Counted from the stretch's first letter, positions 13,130-18,413 are shown. The stretch is DNA of 64,000 bases from the human T2T-CHM13v2.0 reference genome, Homo sapiens (GCF_009914755.1 NC_060938.1), one strand, 5' to 3'. Program-made: numbers and translations. Notes: generated by a model from the sequence alone, not told the origin.

Positions 13130-14090
13130 GAAATTCAGAGGCGGCCAGAGGCCGGCACTTACCGTTAAAAATGCTTAACTTTATTCGCCACACGTCCGGG
13201 GTAAACTCGCGAGGGGATCCTACCTCTTCCAGATGGTTCCACACGGGACCTCTAGGAGCTCAAAGGACCCTGGGCCCTCCGAAGTCGTCTCTTCTTGCAG
13301 CCCGTTGCTAAGTGGCGCCGCAGGGACCAGCCCAGGTCCCATCACGTGGCCCTGCAGGGTTTTGCCCCACAGGGCCACGACCTGCCAGGCCGGGCCCCCC
13401 TCCTCCCTCCTCTTCAGCGCGGAACCTCGGCCGCCAGTGCCAGGCCGCCTCGACCTTGGCGGAGGTCAAAGCCGCGACAGTCCCGGACCATGTGGCCGGC
13501 GGTCCGGGCAGCGCTCCGAGCCTCTGGGGTCCCCCTCCAGGCCTGGAGGCCGATATCCACATCGTCCTTTTTCTCCCAAAAGGCCGCGACCCTGACCGTC
13601 ACGCCCAAGACTGGGCTGGCCGACAAGTGCCTGGATATGAAAGCAGAAGGCTTGGGCTCGGGGGAGCCGGTGACCCTGCAGGTGTCGGGCGTCAGCCACC
13701 GAGGCCGCCTCTTCCACTCCCTTGCCCACTACGAGGTGGACAGCGGCGGGGGGCTGGACCTGGCCGGGGACCTGGCTCTAGGAGGCGACTTCACGGGCGT
13801 GGGGCCCATGGGGCTCCTGTGGAGCCTCATGCCGGCCGCTTCGAAGGATCCACGCCTCAGTCGAATGCGGAGGGCCGCCTTGAAAAACCCCCTCATAGTG
13901 GAGGTGACCATCCACCTAACGCCGCTGCAGCAGGCGGCGCCGCTGAGTCCGGCGCTGGCCTCGGCCCAGGTGCAGCGCTGGTTCTCCATCCCCGAGCTGC
14001 GCCGCGCGCCTGCGAGCCGGCCGCCTGCGGGGGGTCTTCCTGCTGCCATCAGGTGCGGGGGCCCTTTTCCGCAGAGTGCCTGACAGCAGA
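13130..14090. promoter_or_regulatory. CpG island at the 5' end of the ACOT-like pseudogene
   Basis: About 1 kb of very GC- and CpG-dense unique sequence. Contains E-box CACGTG (13343-13348), RFX half-site GTTGCTAAG (13304-13312) and a nuclear-receptor everted repeat (13451-13468). Confidence 0.85.
13490..14052 (+). pseudogene. ACOT-like pseudogene exon 1 (presequence plus N-terminal domain)
   Basis: ggaccATG with A at -3. Open for about 173 codons, then a frameshift in a CG run at ~14009 (shifted frame LRAGRLRGVFLLPS). Donor TCAG|gtgcgg at 14053. Confidence 0.9.
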
Positions 14091-14918
14091 GTGAGGGAAT
14101 CGACTGGCTTGCTTTGCTAGCTGGTTTGTCATCTGAAAACAAAGCGAGCTCCTTAATCCCTTTATTTTGTCTCCTAGACTTCAAGTGGAACATTCATTCC
14201 CCTAGATGGTGGCTAGGATCTAAATTTCATCTGCTTATGCACCTTTCTTCTGCCAGCTGCTCACCCGCCAGAGTCCTAGTGCTGCATACGCTATTCCTTA
14301 GGAGCATAGACCCTGCGTGTTTGCTATATTAAGCATAAGATTGCTGCAAAGTTTCTAGCATTAAATGCTTTTGTTTGCTTACAGCAGTCTCAACCTCCTG
14401 AGCCCAAGCGATCCTCCCACCTCAGCCTTCAGAGTAGAGTAGCTGGGACAGCAGCCATGTGCCACCCAGGTAAATTTTTTTTTTATTTTTTGTAGAGACA
14501 GGGTTTCCCTACGTTGCCCAGCCTGGTCTTGAACTCGTGGGCTCCAGCGATCCTCCCACCTTGGCCTCCCCAAGTGTTGGGATTACAGGTGTGAACCACC
14601 ACACCCAGCCATCTTTCTTTTTTAAATTCTTATTTTTTTAGAGACTAGGTCTTGCTCTGTCACCCAGGCTGGAGTGCAATGGCATCATGATAGCTTATTG
14701 CAGCCTCGACCTTCTGGGCTCAAGTGATCCTTCCACCTCATCTTCTCAAAGTGCTGGGATTACAGGCGTACATGGCCTCATTTTAACCTTTTTGTTTTTT
14801 TAGAGATAGGGTCTTGCTATGCTGCCCAGACTGGTCTTGAACTCCTGGCCTTAAGCAGTCCTCCCACCTCAACTTCTCAAAGTACTGGGATTACAGACAC
14901 ACACAACTGAGCCTGGCT

Positions 14919-14961
14919 TTATTATTATTATTATTATTATTATTATTATTATTATTATTAT
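14919..14961. repeat. (TTA)~14 microsatellite
   Basis: Read directly; tail of an antisense Alu. Confidence 0.9.
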
Positions 14962-16746
14962 TTGAGACAGGGTCTCACTCTGTCACCCTGGCTGGAGTGC
15001 AGTGGCACTGTCACGGCTCACTGCAACCTCCCTTCCAGGGCTGAAGCGATTCTCCCACCTCAGCCTCCCAAGTAGCTGGAACTACAGGATCTCACCACTC
15101 TGCCCAGCCACTTTTACTTTAATTGGAATAACAAAGGAATATATCTGAAAAATACCAGGAAACAATTGGCCGATAAATTCTTCTCTTGGAATAGTGAAGG
15201 AATAAAACATCCCCAACAGGACTGTTGAAAGAGAAATAATAGACCAACGTTGGGAGGATATTAGTTTGACATTTTACTATCTCTTCACACATGTAGTTCA
15301 TTTTATAGTACACCTTCATTAGACCTTTAAAACAGTTTAATCCCTGTCAAATTATGGATTCTGGTGACTCTGACTATATCTTAAATTTATTGAGAAATCA
15401 AAGGGCCCTTTAAATTTGGATGTCTGGGTTTGTTTTTGTTTTTTGATTCTTTGTTTGTTTTTTGAGACGTAGTCTCACTCTGTTGCCCAGGCTAGAGTGC
15501 AGTGGTGAGATCTCAGCTCACTGCAACCTCCGTCACCCAAGTTGAAGCGGTTCTCCCACCTCAGCCTCCCGACTAGCTGGGATCACAGGCATGCACCACC
15601 ACAACCAGCTAGTTTTTTGTATTTTTAGTAGAGATGGGTTTTTGGGGTTTCACCATGATGACCAGGCTGGTCTCGAACTCCCGACCTCAAATGATCTGCT
15701 CACCTCGGCCTCCCAAAGTGCTGGGATTACAGGCATGAGCCACTGTACCTGGCTTTAAAAATCTCATGCTAAAAACCAGACATCCAGCCGGATGCAGTGG
15801 CTCACGCCTGTAATCTCAGCACTTTGAGAGGCCGAGGCGGGCAGATCACCTGAGGTCAGCAGTTTGAGACCAGCCTGGCCAACGTGTAGTGAAACCCCGT
15901 CTCTACTAAAAAATACAAAAATTAGCTGGGCATGGTGGCACACACCTGTAGTCCCAGCTACTTGGGAAGCTGAGGCAGGAGAATCGCTTGAACCTGGCAG
16001 GTGGAGGTTGTAGTGAGCTGAGATCGCACCACTGTACCTTAGCCTGGGCAACAGATCAAGACTCCGTCTCTCAAACAAACAAACGAACAAACAAAAGCAG
16101 ACATCCGGCCAGCACGGTGGCTTACCCCTGTAATCCCAGCACTTTCGGAGGCTGAGGTGGGTGGATCGCCTGAGGTCAGGAGTTCAAGACCAGCCTGGCC
16201 AACATGGCAGAAACCTTGTCTCTACAAAAATTAGCAGGGTGCAGTGGGGCACAAGAATTGCTTGAGCCCGGGAGGTGTGGAGGTTGCAGTGAGTCCAGAC
16301 TATGCCACTGCATTCCAGCCTGGGCTATGGGAGTGAAACCCTGTCTAAAAAAAGAAAAAAAAAAGGAGATTTTTATTCTTACATAACTCAAAGCTTGCAG
16401 AACTATTTGCTTAGACTTATCAGGACTTGTACTTCAAACCAAAACACTTCCCATATATTTGGTGCGATTTTTCTTTTTCTTTTTTTCCATTTACCAGTGA
16501 TTAACTCACAGGGAAAAAAATATAAAAATATTTTTACATTTATAGAATCAAAATAGCTCAAATAAATGTCTATTTCAACCACAATAATAAATCCATTTCC
16601 ACAAAACAGATGTTTTCTTTTCAAAGCAAGTAGGTAGTTTTTTTAAAAAAAGATAAATTATACAATCTAATTTTCATTTAGAAAATGTTGGCTAGGTAAA
16701 TGTTCTGTCATCTAACCCAAGATTCATTCCCTTTCCTGGGTTATAG

Positions 16747-16945
16747 ATGATGGTCCTTTTGCTGGTCTCATTGATATATTTGGTGATGGAGGATTAAGTG
16801 AATCTTGAGCAAGTCTCCTGGCTTGTTGAGGTTTTGCTACTCTGCTTTGCCATTTTTTGGCTATGAAGATCTACCTCCAGCCATGAAAGACTTAAACTTA
16901 GATTACTTTGAAGAGGCAGTTAAATTTGTGCAAAGTCACCCAAAG
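16747..16945 (+). pseudogene. ACOT-like pseudogene exon 2
   Basis: ttatag|AT GAT GGT CCT TTT ... CAC CCA AAG|gtgagt. In-frame TGA at 16806 and 16827; 1-nt frameshift at ~16842. Confidence 0.9.
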
Positions 16946-17508
16946 GTGAGTGGTATGAGAGAAATGAATGAATTACTCCAGAAGAGAGTGAATAAAGGAA
17001 GTGTTACTAATGGGTTGGAAAATACCTGCAACAAATACCTGTTGAATTAATAAATAAATACTAGAGCTGTCTGATAACTCTAAAAAACTCATAAAAGACT
17101 TTCTGGCCAGGCACAGTGGCTCACGCCTGTAATCCCAGCACTTTGGGAGGCTGAGGTGGGCGGATCATCTGAAGTTGGAAGTTCAAGATCAGCCTGATTA
17201 ACATGGAGAAACCCCATCTCTACTAAAAATACAAAATTAGCCGGCTTGGTGGAGCATGCCTGTAATCCCAGCTATTTGGGAGGCTGAGGCAGGAAAATTG
17301 CTTGAACCTGGGAGGCAGACGTTGCAGTGAGCCCAGATTGCACCATTGCACTCCAGCCTGGGCAACAAGAGCGAAACTCTGTCTCAAAAGAAAAAAAAAA
17401 AAAAAAAGGACTTTCCTTTATTGAGGACTTTGGTGATCCCATTAACAATTATGCTTCATTTTTCCTTTGTCTCTTTCCGTGTTTGCCTTCTTTTTCTTCA
17501 GTCTGCAG

Positions 17509-18413
17509 GTCAAAGGTCCAAACATTGCAGTGATTGGCTCAGGCAAAGGGTCAGAGTTGGCATTTTCCATGGCTAGCTTTCTCCCAAATATAGCTGTGGT
17601 CGTGACCATCAGTGGCTGCATCTCAAACACAACTACGCCCTACCTGTGGTAGCTTGATCCTGCTAGGACTGCCTTTTAACCTAGACAGAATCTCTGCCAC
17701 TGATTGAGGAGTATACGGTTAAAGAAGCACTGGAAGACCCCTTGGACAAGCCTATCAAAAAAGCTGTATCCCTCTTAAAAAAGCCAGTGCTGGCTGGGCG
17801 CAGTGGCTCACGTCTGTAATCCCAGCACTTTGGGAGGCCGAGGCGGGTGGATTACCTGAGGTCAGGAGTTCGAGACCAACCTGGCCAACATGGTGAAACC
17901 CTATCTCTATTAAAAATACAAAAATTAGCCGGGCATGGTGGCACATGCCTGTAATCCCAGCTACTCGGGAGGCTAAGGCAGGAGAATTGCTTGAGCCCAG
18001 GAGGCGGAGGTTGCAGTGAGCTGAGATCGTGCCACTGCACTCCAGCCTGGCCTACAGTGCGAGACTCTGTCTCAAAAAAAAAAAAAAAGAAAGAAAAGAA
18101 AAAGAAAAAAAGAAAAAGCCAATGCCCATTTCCTTTTTATTGTTGGAGAGGATAACAAGCGTTGGAAGAGCTCTGTTTATACTGACATAGCTGTGAAGTG
18201 TCTCAAAGAACATGGGAAGACAAATTTTACTCTTTTAAGCTATTCCGGTGCTGGCCACAGAATAGATTCCCCCTTACAGTCCTTTTTTCTCTGTAGCCCT
18301 GGATCCTGTATTGAGGGTGCCTATTTTGGGAGTGGGGGCAGCTCAAAGCTCATGCTATTGCTCAGATTGAGTCTTGGAAGATCTTGGAGTTTTTGCAGTT
18401 GCACTTAGGGTAA
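17509..18413 (+). pseudogene. ACOT-like pseudogene exon 3 (catalytic alpha/beta-hydrolase half), split by an Alu
   Basis: ctgcag|GTC AAA GGT CCA. Frameshifts at ~17641, ~17717, ~17748, ~18268 and ~18332; TGA at 17705; Alu at 17792-18112; ancestral stop TAA at 18411-18413. A possible polyA signal AATAAA lies at 18684-18689. Confidence 0.9.
17792..18112 (+). mobile_element. AluS (Sx-like) inserted in pseudogene exon 3
   Basis: Full-length Alu with an A-rich tail. TSD aaaaagcca(g/a)tgc at ~17778-17790 and 18113-18125; L1-endonuclease-type tt/aaaa site. Confidence 0.92.

What the first reader, a model, noticed from the sequence alone, without database searches (positions are those of the whole stretch)
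13490..18413. A lost ACOT/BAAT-family gene next to DNAL1: candidate unitary pseudogene of a divergent lineage
Seen: a complete three-exon gene skeleton with intact GT-AG sites that reconstructs to a full-length type-I acyl-CoA thioesterase/N-acyltransferase fold. Established: ACOT1/2/4/6 and BAAT share this exon layout, and the ACOT cluster lies beside DNAL1. Inference: the peptide is far from ACOT1/2/4 (LTVTPKTGLAD, PMGLLWSLMP, QRWF, FGDGGL, ISGCISNT, GHRIDPP), some of it more BAAT-like, and exons 2-3 are AT-rich. It therefore looks like an old, separate paralog that died in the primate lineage, not a recent failed duplicate. That would be a metabolic gene humans lack but other amniotes may keep.
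Basis: partly seen in the sequence, partly recalled or inferred. Interest (0 to 1): 0.75.

Follow-up and report, generated by a model that had tools for sequence, protein, structure and literature searches.

The report
Dead ancient ACOT-like gene beside DNAL1
Just upstream of DNAL1, humans carry the broken remains of an ancient third branch of the acyl-CoA thioesterase/BAAT enzyme family, which sharks, birds, marsupials, cats, bats and tree shrews still keep intact.

Summary
Window 13490-18413 (+) holds a three-exon type-I ACOT/BAAT gene. It keeps its ATG, both GT-AG introns (phases 1 and 0) and its stop codon. It is destroyed by 7 frameshifts, 3 premature TGA codons, a 3-base deletion and an Alu inside exon 3. 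RefSeq does not annotate it.

It is not a failed copy of ACOT1/2/4/6. It is 40-42% identical to them but 77-79% to intact 425-446 aa proteins of cat, bat and tree shrew. It nests among those proteins in a clade running from chimaera and sharks to placentals. An AU test rejects placing it with mammalian ACOT1-6 (p = 3e-7). The human genome has no second copy. Gene models in birds, Tasmanian devil and a colobine monkey fuse the ortholog to DNAL1, which indicates conserved synteny.

One qualification: in all 52 tetrapod orthologs examined the catalytic Ser is Gly, while Asp and His persist. The lost gene was probably not a canonical thioesterase.

The parts
13101..14100 (.). CpG-island-like region over the old promoter and exon 1
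   Evidence: GC 0.668 and CpG observed/expected 0.71 over 13101-14100; exon 1 alone has GC 0.693 and o/e 0.74.
13490..14052 (+). Exon 1 of the pseudogene: ATG, presequence-like N-terminus and the N-terminal Bile_Hydr_Trans domain. One frameshift, marked by a leftover base at 14003.
   Evidence: Pfam PF04775 E = 1.4e-27. tblastn with cat, bat and tree-shrew proteins switches frame at 14003/14004. Donor GT at 14053-54.
16747..16945 (+). Exon 2. TGA at 16806-08 and at 16827-29, both where the cat, bat and tree-shrew orthologs have Arg. One-base deletion at 16844.
   Evidence: Acceptor AG at 16745-46; donor GTGAGT from 16946.
17509..17791 (+). Exon 3, part before the Alu. Carries the nucleophile-elbow motif G-S-G-K-G, with the Gly codon GGC at 17542-44 in the nucleophile position. 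Lesions, marked by leftover bases: 17638 (net -2), TGA at 17705-07, 17717 (net -2), 17748-49 (net -1).
   Evidence: Pfam BAAT_C positions 19-59, E = 1.6e-8.
17792..18112 (+). Dimeric Alu with an A-rich tail inserted into exon 3, in sense orientation
   Evidence: 13-nt target-site duplication at 17778-17790 and 18113-18125, 12 of 13 identical. Internal 102-nt repeat at 135-nt spacing, i.e. the two Alu arms. Repeat-masked at 17786-18147.
18113..18413 (+). Exon 3, part after the Alu. Asn codon AAC at 18154-56 where the catalytic Asp should be. His codon CAC at 18256-58. One-base insertions at 18268 and 18338. Loss of one Lys codon near 18378. TAA at 18411-13, at the orthologous end.
   Evidence: Pfam BAAT_C positions 112-161 (E = 1.4e-11) and 186-209.
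13163..13868 (-). Annotated alternative first exon of HEATR4 (Gnomon models XM_054376044, XM_054376045, XR_008488869), antisense over the old promoter and two thirds of exon 1
   Evidence: The + strand reads ...cacttacc at 13156-13163, which is G|GTAAGT on the minus strand.

Best explanation
This is a unitary (unprocessed, paralog-less) pseudogene. It is the human relic of the single-copy gene that lies immediately upstream of DNAL1 in other jawed vertebrates. That gene belongs to a third, ancient subfamily of the type-I acyl-CoA thioesterase/BAAT family, which I call 'clade C' here (my label), distinct from ACOT1-6 and from BAAT/ACNAT.

In the lineage leading to humans the gene lost constraint before the human/Old World monkey split. 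By rough rate arguments that was some 50-90 million years ago. It has since collected 7 frameshifts, 3 stop codons, an in-frame deletion and an Alu insertion. It can no longer encode the protein.

Inferred, not shown: the ancestral protein was imported into mitochondria. In bony vertebrates it no longer worked by the Ser-Asp-His covalent mechanism, because the Ser is Gly or Ala while Asp and His stay invariant. The old CpG-rich promoter survives and is now annotated as an antisense alternative first exon of HEATR4.
For: Anatomy and lesions.

Family.

Separate clade.
- Identity is 77-79% to cat, bat and tree shrew, against 40-42% to human ACOT1/2/4/6.
- In the IQ-TREE of 70 rows the query sits in a placental set (98*), inside a 33-row clade (97*) that follows the species tree from chimaera to placentals.
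- In the FastTree of 111 rows the clade has 67 tips with support 96.
- The AU test gives p = 3.1e-7.

No other copy. A six-frame search of the whole CHM13 genome with the cat protein gave 25 matches. The 6 at chr14:67841490-67846294 (this locus) run from 52% to 81% identity. The other 19 are ACOT1/2/4/6, ACOT4P1, BAAT and ACNATP, at 35-49% in exons 1 and 3 and 56-61% in exon 2.

Synteny. In 5 of 5 fusion models tested (Pygathrix, ibis, parrot, turkey, Tasmanian devil), the N-terminal part aligns to the pseudogene exons and the C-terminal part to DNAL1 exons at 38375, 41516 and 51069, in the same strand and order (one model, the parrot's, gave no hit at 41516).

Neutral decay.
- Human and Papio exon 1 share 126 of 147 residues (85.7%). 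My simulation of unconstrained change gives 88 +/- 2.5% at d = 0.065 and 85 +/- 2.7% at d = 0.08.
- At 120 polarisable sites there are 22 changes shared by human and Papio, 7 human-only and 8 Papio-only.
- Human differs from the outgroup majority at 32 of 120 sites. Cat differs at 4 of 96, bat at 8 of 94 and tree shrew at 10 of 99.

Active site. At the column of ACOT4 Ser232, 52 of 52 tetrapods have Gly, the bichir has Gly, coelacanth and lungfish (2 of 2) have Ala, and 11 of 11 chondrichthyans have Ser. Asp is present in 66 of 66 and His in 65 of 66. Outside the clade, 44 of 44 have Ser or Cys.
- The HMMER alignment to PDB 3hlk and 3k2i is ungapped across this motif.
- In the AlphaFold model of the cat protein, Gly267 lies between strand 256-266 and helix 268-279.

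Targeting. Clade members have N-terminal extensions of mostly 21-41 residues before the first conserved block (longer in the skate, opossum and koala models, shorter in four truncated placental models), carrying 3-10 Lys+Arg and 0-2 Asp+Glu. 32 of the 41 rows outside clade C end in an S/A/P/N-K/R-L/I/V tripeptide; most clade-C rows end in L-x-(L/F/M)-H-L-x. Residues 1-29 of the cat model have pLDDT below 50.
Against: - Exon 1 is still an open frame of 188 codons with an intact ATG, so a truncated product cannot be formally excluded. However, the sequence is 69% GC, and two other frames over the same stretch are also open for 154-260 codons. The open frame is therefore expected from composition.
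- Synteny in other species rests on fused gene models, not on genome sequence that I could read.
- Orthology of the Old World monkey fragments covers exon 1 only. I found no lesion demonstrably shared by human and monkey.
- The dating uses small counts and divergence times that I recalled.
- Mitochondrial targeting and loss of catalysis are inferences from sequence only.
- I saw only RefSeq annotation. GENCODE or HGNC may already list this pseudogene.
Confidence: 0.9

Rival explanations
1. A recent, failed tandem duplicate of ACOT6 or another member of the human ACOT1/2/4/6 cluster.
For: It lies 14 kb downstream of ACOT6, on the same strand, with the same three-exon layout.
Against: It is 40-42% identical to all four human ACOTs, against 77-79% to the clade-C orthologs. 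The tree placement is outside ACOT1-6. The AU test rejects the grouping, delta lnL 382, p = 3.1e-7.
Confidence: 0.01
2. The locus still makes a protein, for example the N-terminal beta-sandwich domain alone from the open exon 1, or a read-through fusion with DNAL1 as in the Pygathrix model.
For: Exon 1 keeps its ATG and 188 open codons. Old World monkey annotations contain a 147 aa protein and a DNAL1 fusion built from it.
Against: Human/Papio amino-acid identity of 85.7% equals the neutral expectation. 32 of 120 sites are changed in human, against 4-18% in lineages with a gene model. The frameshift at 14003 precedes the splice donor. Among 221 named-source candidates scored, no human protein was returned. 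Long open frames occur in other frames of this GC-rich stretch as well.
Confidence: 0.03
3. The coding gene is dead, but the relic was kept as a regulatory or non-coding element: its CpG-island promoter now drives antisense HEATR4 isoforms or other transcripts. This complements the main explanation and does not exclude it.
For: CpG o/e of 0.71 at GC 0.67 persists over 13101-14100. Gnomon HEATR4 models start at 13868 on the minus strand and splice from a consensus GTAAGT donor at 13162. An annotated 'active region' enhancer lies at chr14:67840830-67840879, which is window 12830-12879.
Against: Only predicted (XM/XR) transcripts support it. No expression or methylation data were available here.
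Confidence: 0.35
4. A processed (retrotransposed) pseudogene of a family member.
For: None beyond its being a pseudogene.
Against: Two introns sit at the family's positions, with GT-AG ends and conserved phases. The gene lies at the syntenic position.
Confidence: 0

Closest known systems
ACNATP / BAATP1 (human chr9 pseudogene next to BAAT)
   Same: Same protein family. It is an unprocessed pseudogene in humans whose ortholog is intact in many other mammals. It is listed as a human unitary pseudogene (Acnat2 row of Table 1 in PMC2864566, passages read) and studied as BAATP1 (PMC6934887, abstract and passages read).
   Different: A different subfamily, arising from a therian tandem duplicate of BAAT. 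Its intact orthologs keep Cys or Ser at the nucleophile position (PMC6934887). It has a surviving close paralog (BAAT) in humans, and mouse keeps it. The chr14 relic has no close paralog in humans, and its orthologs have Gly at the nucleophile position.
ACOT2 (mitochondrial type-I acyl-CoA thioesterase; PDB 3hlk)
   Same: Same two-domain fold. The cat ortholog matches 3hlk at E = 1.3e-110 by sequence, and its model matches with TM-score 0.93 normalised to the target. Both have a basic N-terminal extension.
   Different: 41% identity to the human relic. ACOT2 keeps the Ser nucleophile and ends in -SKV, whereas clade C ends in -LHLG. It belongs to a different clade.
ACOT6 (the neighbouring gene, 14 kb upstream)
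   Same: Same strand, same exon layout, same family.
   Different: 42% identity. It falls in a separate clade with its own orthologs in lemur, marmot, seal, bat, sloth and tenrec.
BAAT
   Same: Same family and exon layout. Groups with clade C on the midpoint-rooted tree.
   Different: That grouping depends on the root alone. Identity is about the same as to the ACOTs (43% to a gecko BAAT). BAAT has a Cys or Ser nucleophile and a C-terminal SKL-like signal.
Alpha/beta-hydrolase-fold proteins without a nucleophile, such as neuroligins and ABHD5/CGI-58 (recalled from memory, not tested here)
   Same: They retain the fold with the nucleophile replaced and are conserved for non-hydrolytic or altered functions. 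This is a possible analogy for the tetrapod clade-C proteins.
   Different: No sequence relationship beyond the superfamily. In clade C the Asp-His pair stays invariant, which hints at residual general-base chemistry rather than a purely structural role.

Membership tests
Type-I acyl-CoA thioesterase / BAAT family (Pfam PF04775 + PF08840) | N-terminal Bile_Hydr_Trans domain | tested here: met
   Exon 1 translation: PF04775 E = 1.4e-27, 96.5 bits, cut-off 27.
Type-I acyl-CoA thioesterase / BAAT family (Pfam PF04775 + PF08840) | C-terminal BAAT_C alpha/beta-hydrolase domain | tested here: met
   Four open pieces hit PF08840 colinearly; 2 of the 4 are above the 20.9-bit cut-off. The intact cat ortholog scores E = 2.2e-64. 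Its model matches 3k2i and 3hlk with TM-scores 0.95 and 0.93.
Type-I acyl-CoA thioesterase / BAAT family (Pfam PF04775 + PF08840) | Three coding exons with intron phases 1 and 0 | tested here: met
Type-I acyl-CoA thioesterase / BAAT family (Pfam PF04775 + PF08840) | Catalytic triad Ser/Cys-Asp-His (BAAT Cys235/Asp328/His362 per PMC6934887; columns of ACOT4 Ser232, Asp326, His360) | tested here: not met
   The human relic has Gly, Asn and His. 52 of 52 tetrapod orthologs have Gly, Asp and His (the His is missing in one aberrant tenrec model). 44 of 44 proteins outside the clade have Ser or Cys.
Type-I acyl-CoA thioesterase / BAAT family (Pfam PF04775 + PF08840) | Acyl-CoA hydrolase or N-acyltransferase activity | not testable with these tools
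   I found no biochemical data for any clade-C protein.
ACOT1-6 cluster subfamily | Falls within the clade of mammalian ACOT1-6 | tested here: not met
   AU test p = 3.1e-7.
BAAT/ACNAT subfamily | Falls within the BAAT/ACNAT clade; Cys or Ser nucleophile; C-terminal PTS1-like tripeptide | tested here: not met
   The BAAT/ACNAT rows form their own clade (100*), which excludes the query. The nucleophile is Gly. The C-terminus is -LHLG.
Unitary pseudogene | Reading frame disabled | tested here: met
   7 frameshifts, 3 TGA codons and an Alu insertion.
Unitary pseudogene | Unprocessed, and with no functional copy of the same orthogroup in the genome | tested here: met
   Introns are retained. The whole-genome six-frame search finds no other clade-C-like locus. 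Matches in closed regions are not shown, so absence is not absolute.
Unitary pseudogene | Intact ortholog at the syntenic position in other species | tested here: inconclusive
   Intact orthologs are shown. Adjacency to DNAL1 is shown only indirectly, through 5 fused gene models. No vertebrate genome could be read here.

The most novel reading that the evidence does not exclude
The DNAL1-adjacent gene defines a third subfamily of type-I ACOT/BAAT proteins that spans the jawed vertebrates and is probably mitochondrial. In bony vertebrates it swapped its catalytic Ser for Ala or Gly more than 400 million years ago (date recalled). It nevertheless kept the Asp-His pair invariant and stayed as conserved as the classical ACOTs. 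That would make it either a conserved pseudoenzyme or an enzyme with a non-covalent, general-base mechanism. It has escaped study and gene-loss screens because humans have lost it and rodents apparently lack it; the screens whose methods I read were seeded with mouse or other rodent genes.
Probability: 0.45. Interest if true: 0.7.

Novelty: new member of a known kind. Interest (0 to 1): 0.55.

Why it matters
- Gene catalogue. This adds an unannotated (in RefSeq) unitary pseudogene to the well-studied 14q24.3 ACOT cluster. The textbook count of human type-I members (ACOT1, 2, 4, 6 and BAAT) omits a whole ancestral subfamily.
- Blind spot of screens. The three genome-wide loss screens I read used mouse or other rodents as the source of reference genes: mouse orthologs in PMC2864566, mouse genes with dog as outgroup in PMC2134963, rodent species in PMC10195156. 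A gene missing from both primates and rodents is invisible to that design.
- Biochemistry. The intact orthologs are an attractive target. They are a conserved alpha/beta-hydrolase with Gly at the nucleophile position and an invariant Asp-His pair, probably in mitochondria of carnivores, bats, birds and reptiles.
- Annotation errors. Several database proteins need correcting: the Papio 147 aa 'ACOT2-like' protein, the Pygathrix hypothetical protein, and DNAL1 'isoforms' in birds and Tasmanian devil.

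Tried and rejected
- Recent duplicate of ACOT1/2/4/6: rejected.
- Processed pseudogene: rejected, because the introns are retained.
- Further ACOT-like fragments in the window: none outside 13400-18500, using 7 query proteins.
- AU test on the 70-row mixture-model tree: did not finish in two 300-s runs. I replaced it with a 28-row LG+G4 test.
- 'BAAT-like' affinity: cannot be decided without an outgroup.
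- Dating from codon models (dN/dS, RELAX): not possible, because no vertebrate nucleotide sequences are reachable with these tools.
- Alu subfamily and age: not determined. I built no consensus of Alu copies.
- Literature. Seven full-text searches and passages of nine papers turned up no description of this pseudogene or of its clade.
  - Zhang et al. 2010 (PMC2864566, passages read) list Acnat2 on chr9. Their text contains no 'acot' and mentions no chr14 locus in this region.
  - Zhu et al. 2007 (PMC2134963) and the 2023 LOST&FOUND paper (PMC10195156) do not contain 'acot', 'dnal1' or 'chr14' in their main texts.
  - The supplementary tables of all three are closed and could still list the locus.
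  - A 2024 review (PMC10982514, passages read) names only ACOT1, 2, 4 and 6 as human type-I members and never uses the word 'pseudogene'.
  - Brocker et al. 2010 is not held.
  - The chicken symbol ACOT1L appears in omics lists. I could not tell whether it is the clade-C gene.
- More primate fragments: the third protein search, with the Papio fragment, found only itself and two carnivore fragments.
- Unused loci: L005-L008 (ACNATP, BAAT parts, ACOT4P1) were fetched but not analysed further. The two BAAT requests came back cut to 10,000 bases each.

Full report
WHAT IS THERE

An ATG at 13490 opens exon 1 (13490-14052), which ends at a GT donor. Exon 2 (16747-16945) is bounded by AG and GTGAGT. 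Exon 3 (17509-18413) starts after an AG and ends with TAA at 18411-13.

Exon 1 translates without a stop and matches Pfam PF04775, the N-terminal domain of acyl-CoA thioesterases and BAAT, at E = 1.4e-27. Four open pieces of exons 2-3 match PF08840 (BAAT_C) in colinear order. Intron phases (1, then 0) and exon sizes follow the annotated ACOT1/2/4/6 genes.

RefSeq annotates nothing on the + strand between ACOT6, which ends 600 bases before the window, and DNAL1, which starts at 24479.

HOW IT IS BROKEN

I compared the locus with intact proteins of cat (P0004), bat (P0003) and tree shrew (P0006). The frame fails at the following places.
- Exon 1: one frameshift, marked by a leftover base at 14003 in a CG-repeat run.
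- Exon 2: TGA at 16806-08 and at 16827-29, both where the three orthologs have Arg, and a one-base deletion at 16844.
- Exon 3, frameshifts: leftover bases at 17638, 17717 and 17748-49, and one-base insertions at 18268 and 18338.
- Exon 3, other lesions: TGA at 17705-07, and loss of one Lys codon near 18378.
- Exon 3, insertion: a dimeric Alu with an A-rich tail at 17792-18112, flanked by a 13-nt target-site duplication with 12 of 13 bases identical.

The total is 7 frameshifts, 3 stop codons, 1 in-frame deletion and 1 Alu. The codon for the catalytic Asp reads Asn (AAC at 18154-56).

NOT A COPY OF THE NEIGHBOURING ACOT GENES

For comparison I made a conceptual translation with X at all 11 breaks. 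It existed only inside scripts.
- It is 40-42% identical to human ACOT1, 2, 4 and 6, and 43% to a gecko BAAT.
- It is 77-79% identical to cat, bat and tree shrew, 61% to a bilby, 52-53% to swan and turtle, and 46% to Callorhinchus.
- In a maximum-likelihood tree of 70 proteins it sits among the placental sequences (nested sets with SH-aLRT 98, 99 and 100). These lie inside a 33-row clade (97) whose branching follows the species tree from chimaera and sharks through coelacanth, lungfish, amphibians, reptiles, birds and marsupials. ACOT1-6 with their fish relatives (99) and BAAT/ACNAT (100) are separate clades.
- A FastTree of 111 rows recovers the same clade with 67 tips and support 96. I had left out 24 fragments, fusions and over-long models, which are listed in that call.
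- Forcing the relic together with 8 mammalian ACOT1-6 rows costs 382 log-likelihood units, p-AU 3.1e-7.
- The apparent sister relation to BAAT is an effect of midpoint rooting. With three monophyletic groups only an outgroup can decide, and I had none.

NO SECOND COPY IN HUMANS, AND SYNTENY ELSEWHERE

A six-frame search of the whole CHM13 assembly with the cat protein gave 25 matches. Six of them are this locus, at 52-81% identity. The rest are ACOT1/2/4/6, ACOT4P1, BAAT and ACNATP, at 35-49% in exons 1 and 3 and 56-61% in the conserved exon 2.

The protein database holds gene models that fuse a clade member to DNAL1. They come from an ibis, a parrot, a flamingo, turkey, Tasmanian devil and the colobine Pygathrix. 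I aligned five of them to the window. In all five the N-terminal part fell on the pseudogene exons and the C-terminal part on DNAL1 exons, in the same strand and order. This is indirect but [18 protein letters not shown] that the gene has sat immediately upstream of DNAL1 since before birds and mammals split.

WHO KEEPS IT

One search returned 610 hits and listed the best 120. Placental members of the clade in that list come from these groups:
- felids (cluster of 21 sequences);
- a bat cluster (16 sequences);
- tree shrew;
- hedgehog and star-nosed mole;
- seals, a mustelid and meerkat (flagged low quality);
- tenrec and manatee (both models look damaged).

No rodent, lagomorph, even- or odd-toed ungulate or xenarthran protein of the clade appears. 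All rodents in the list are ACOT1-6 types at 44-48% identity. Because clusters are shown only by their representative, and only annotated proteins are searched, this suggests recurrent loss but does not prove it.

From primates only two fragments were returned, both built from exon 1: a 147 aa Papio protein (cluster of 11) and the Pygathrix fusion.

WHEN IT DIED

Human and Papio share 126 of 147 exon-1 residues (85.7%). My simulation of unconstrained substitution on the human sequence gives 88 +/- 2.5% at 6.5% nucleotide divergence and 85 +/- 2.7% at 8%. Both lineages therefore look unconstrained since they split.

I polarised changes with seven other placentals at 120 usable sites. There were 22 changes shared by human and Papio, 7 human-only, 8 Papio-only and 3 where both differ. 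Human differs from the outgroup majority at 32 of 120 sites. For comparison, cat differs at 4 of 96, bat at 8 of 94 and tree shrew at 10 of 99.

I then applied recalled dates of about 29 million years for the human/Old World monkey split and about 90 million years for the placental radiation. On those dates the shared changes need essentially the whole stem at the neutral rate. Eight indels in about 1.3 kb also fit some tens of millions of years. I therefore place the loss before the catarrhine ancestor, roughly 50-90 million years ago. The error is wide, and no shared lesion has been demonstrated.

WHAT THE LIVING GENE ENCODES

Fold. The cat protein matches the solved human ACOT2 (3hlk, E = 1.3e-110) and ACOT4 (3k2i) over its full length. 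An AlphaFold model built from a 64-sequence alignment has mean pLDDT 88 and pTM 0.87. It superposes on 3k2i and 3hlk with TM-scores of 0.95 and 0.93.

Active site. The surprise is at the column of the nucleophile (ACOT4 Ser232, BAAT position 235).
- All 52 tetrapod members and the bichir have Gly.
- Coelacanth and lungfish have Ala.
- All 11 chondrichthyans have Ser.
- Outside the clade, 44 of 44 proteins have Ser or Cys.
- The alignment is ungapped there. In the model, Gly267 is the residue between strand 256-266 and helix 268-279, which is the nucleophile elbow.
- The catalytic Asp is present in 66 of 66 members and the His in 65 of 66. The exception is a tenrec model with an aberrant C-terminus.

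Conservation. The proteins are as conserved as classical ACOTs. Cat/bat identity is 89%, against 85% for horse/camel ACOT1. Swan/turtle identity is 79%, against 74% for bird/lizard ACOT1.

Targeting. Members carry a basic N-terminal extension almost free of acidic residues, mostly 21-41 residues long (longer in the skate, opossum and koala models, shorter in four truncated placental models). Most end in L-x-(L/F/M)-H-L-x rather than the SKL-like tripeptide that ends 32 of the 41 ACOT1-6 and BAAT rows. The first 29 residues of the cat model are disordered.

My inference is a mitochondrial matrix protein that either uses the Asp-His pair without a covalent acyl-enzyme intermediate or has become a binding protein.

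WHAT THE RELIC DOES NOW

As a coding gene it does nothing. The old promoter and exon 1 remain CpG-rich, with GC 0.67 and observed/expected CpG 0.71. RefSeq's predicted HEATR4 isoforms begin there on the opposite strand (13868 down to 13163) and splice from a consensus GTAAGT donor across the whole ACOT cluster. Promoter reuse is plausible but rests on predicted transcripts only.

IS IT KNOWN?

RefSeq lacks it. Seven full-text searches and the passages I read found no mention of it. The human gene-loss screens I read (PMC2864566, PMC2134963, PMC10195156) used mouse or other rodents as the source of reference genes, so they would miss a gene that rodents also lack. I could not consult GENCODE, HGNC or the closed supplements, so prior cataloguing cannot be excluded.

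VERDICT

This is a new member of a known kind (a unitary pseudogene). It comes with a worthwhile lead: the surviving orthologs form an uncharacterised type-I ACOT-like subfamily that lacks the catalytic nucleophile.

Noticed in passing
window 13163-13868 (- strand): Predicted HEATR4 isoforms (XM_054376044, XM_054376045, XR_008488869) use a first exon antisense to the pseudogene's promoter and exon 1. They splice from a GTAAGT donor over about 111 kb, across ACOT6, ACOT4, ACOT2 and ACOT1, to the next HEATR4 exon.
   Followed up: partly
P0001 (Papio anubis, 147 aa) and P0012 (Pygathrix nigripes, 369 aa): These database 'proteins' are built from exon 1 of the same dead gene. One is named ACOT2 mitochondrial-like. 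The other is fused to DNAL1 leucine-rich repeats. Both are probably annotation artefacts of a pseudogene.
   Followed up: partly
P0071, P0072, P0074, P0103 (birds) and P0090 (Tasmanian devil): Gene models named 'dynein axonemal light chain 1' carry a whole or partial clade-C thioesterase-like N-terminal half. These are read-through or merged annotations of two adjacent genes.
   Followed up: partly
P0007 (manatee), P0009 (tenrec), P0022/P0025 (meerkat), P0008 (stoat): These placental models are truncated, flagged low quality, or contain segments that look intronic or out of frame. For example, the manatee model runs on past the exon 2 end. This hints at further independent losses.
   Followed up: no
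tree, therian stem of the clade: The branch leading to marsupials plus placentals is long (0.41 changes per site), and cat/swan identity is only 58% against 69% for ACOT1 horse/bird. That suggests a burst of change in early mammals, before the later conservation.
   Followed up: no
clade-C alignment, residue before the nucleophile position (cat Ser266): This residue is Ser or Thr in 64 of 66 clade members, including the sharks that still have the nucleophile Ser. ACOT1-6 have Ile, Leu, Phe, His, Thr or other residues there. Its significance is unknown.
   Followed up: no
window 14920-14962: A pure (ATT)n microsatellite of about 14 units lies in intron 1, between Alu elements.
   Followed up: no
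window 10968-11633: NDUFB8P1, an annotated pseudogene, lies 1.9 kb upstream of the relic's ATG inside the long HEATR4 intron. It is unrelated to the finding.
   Followed up: no
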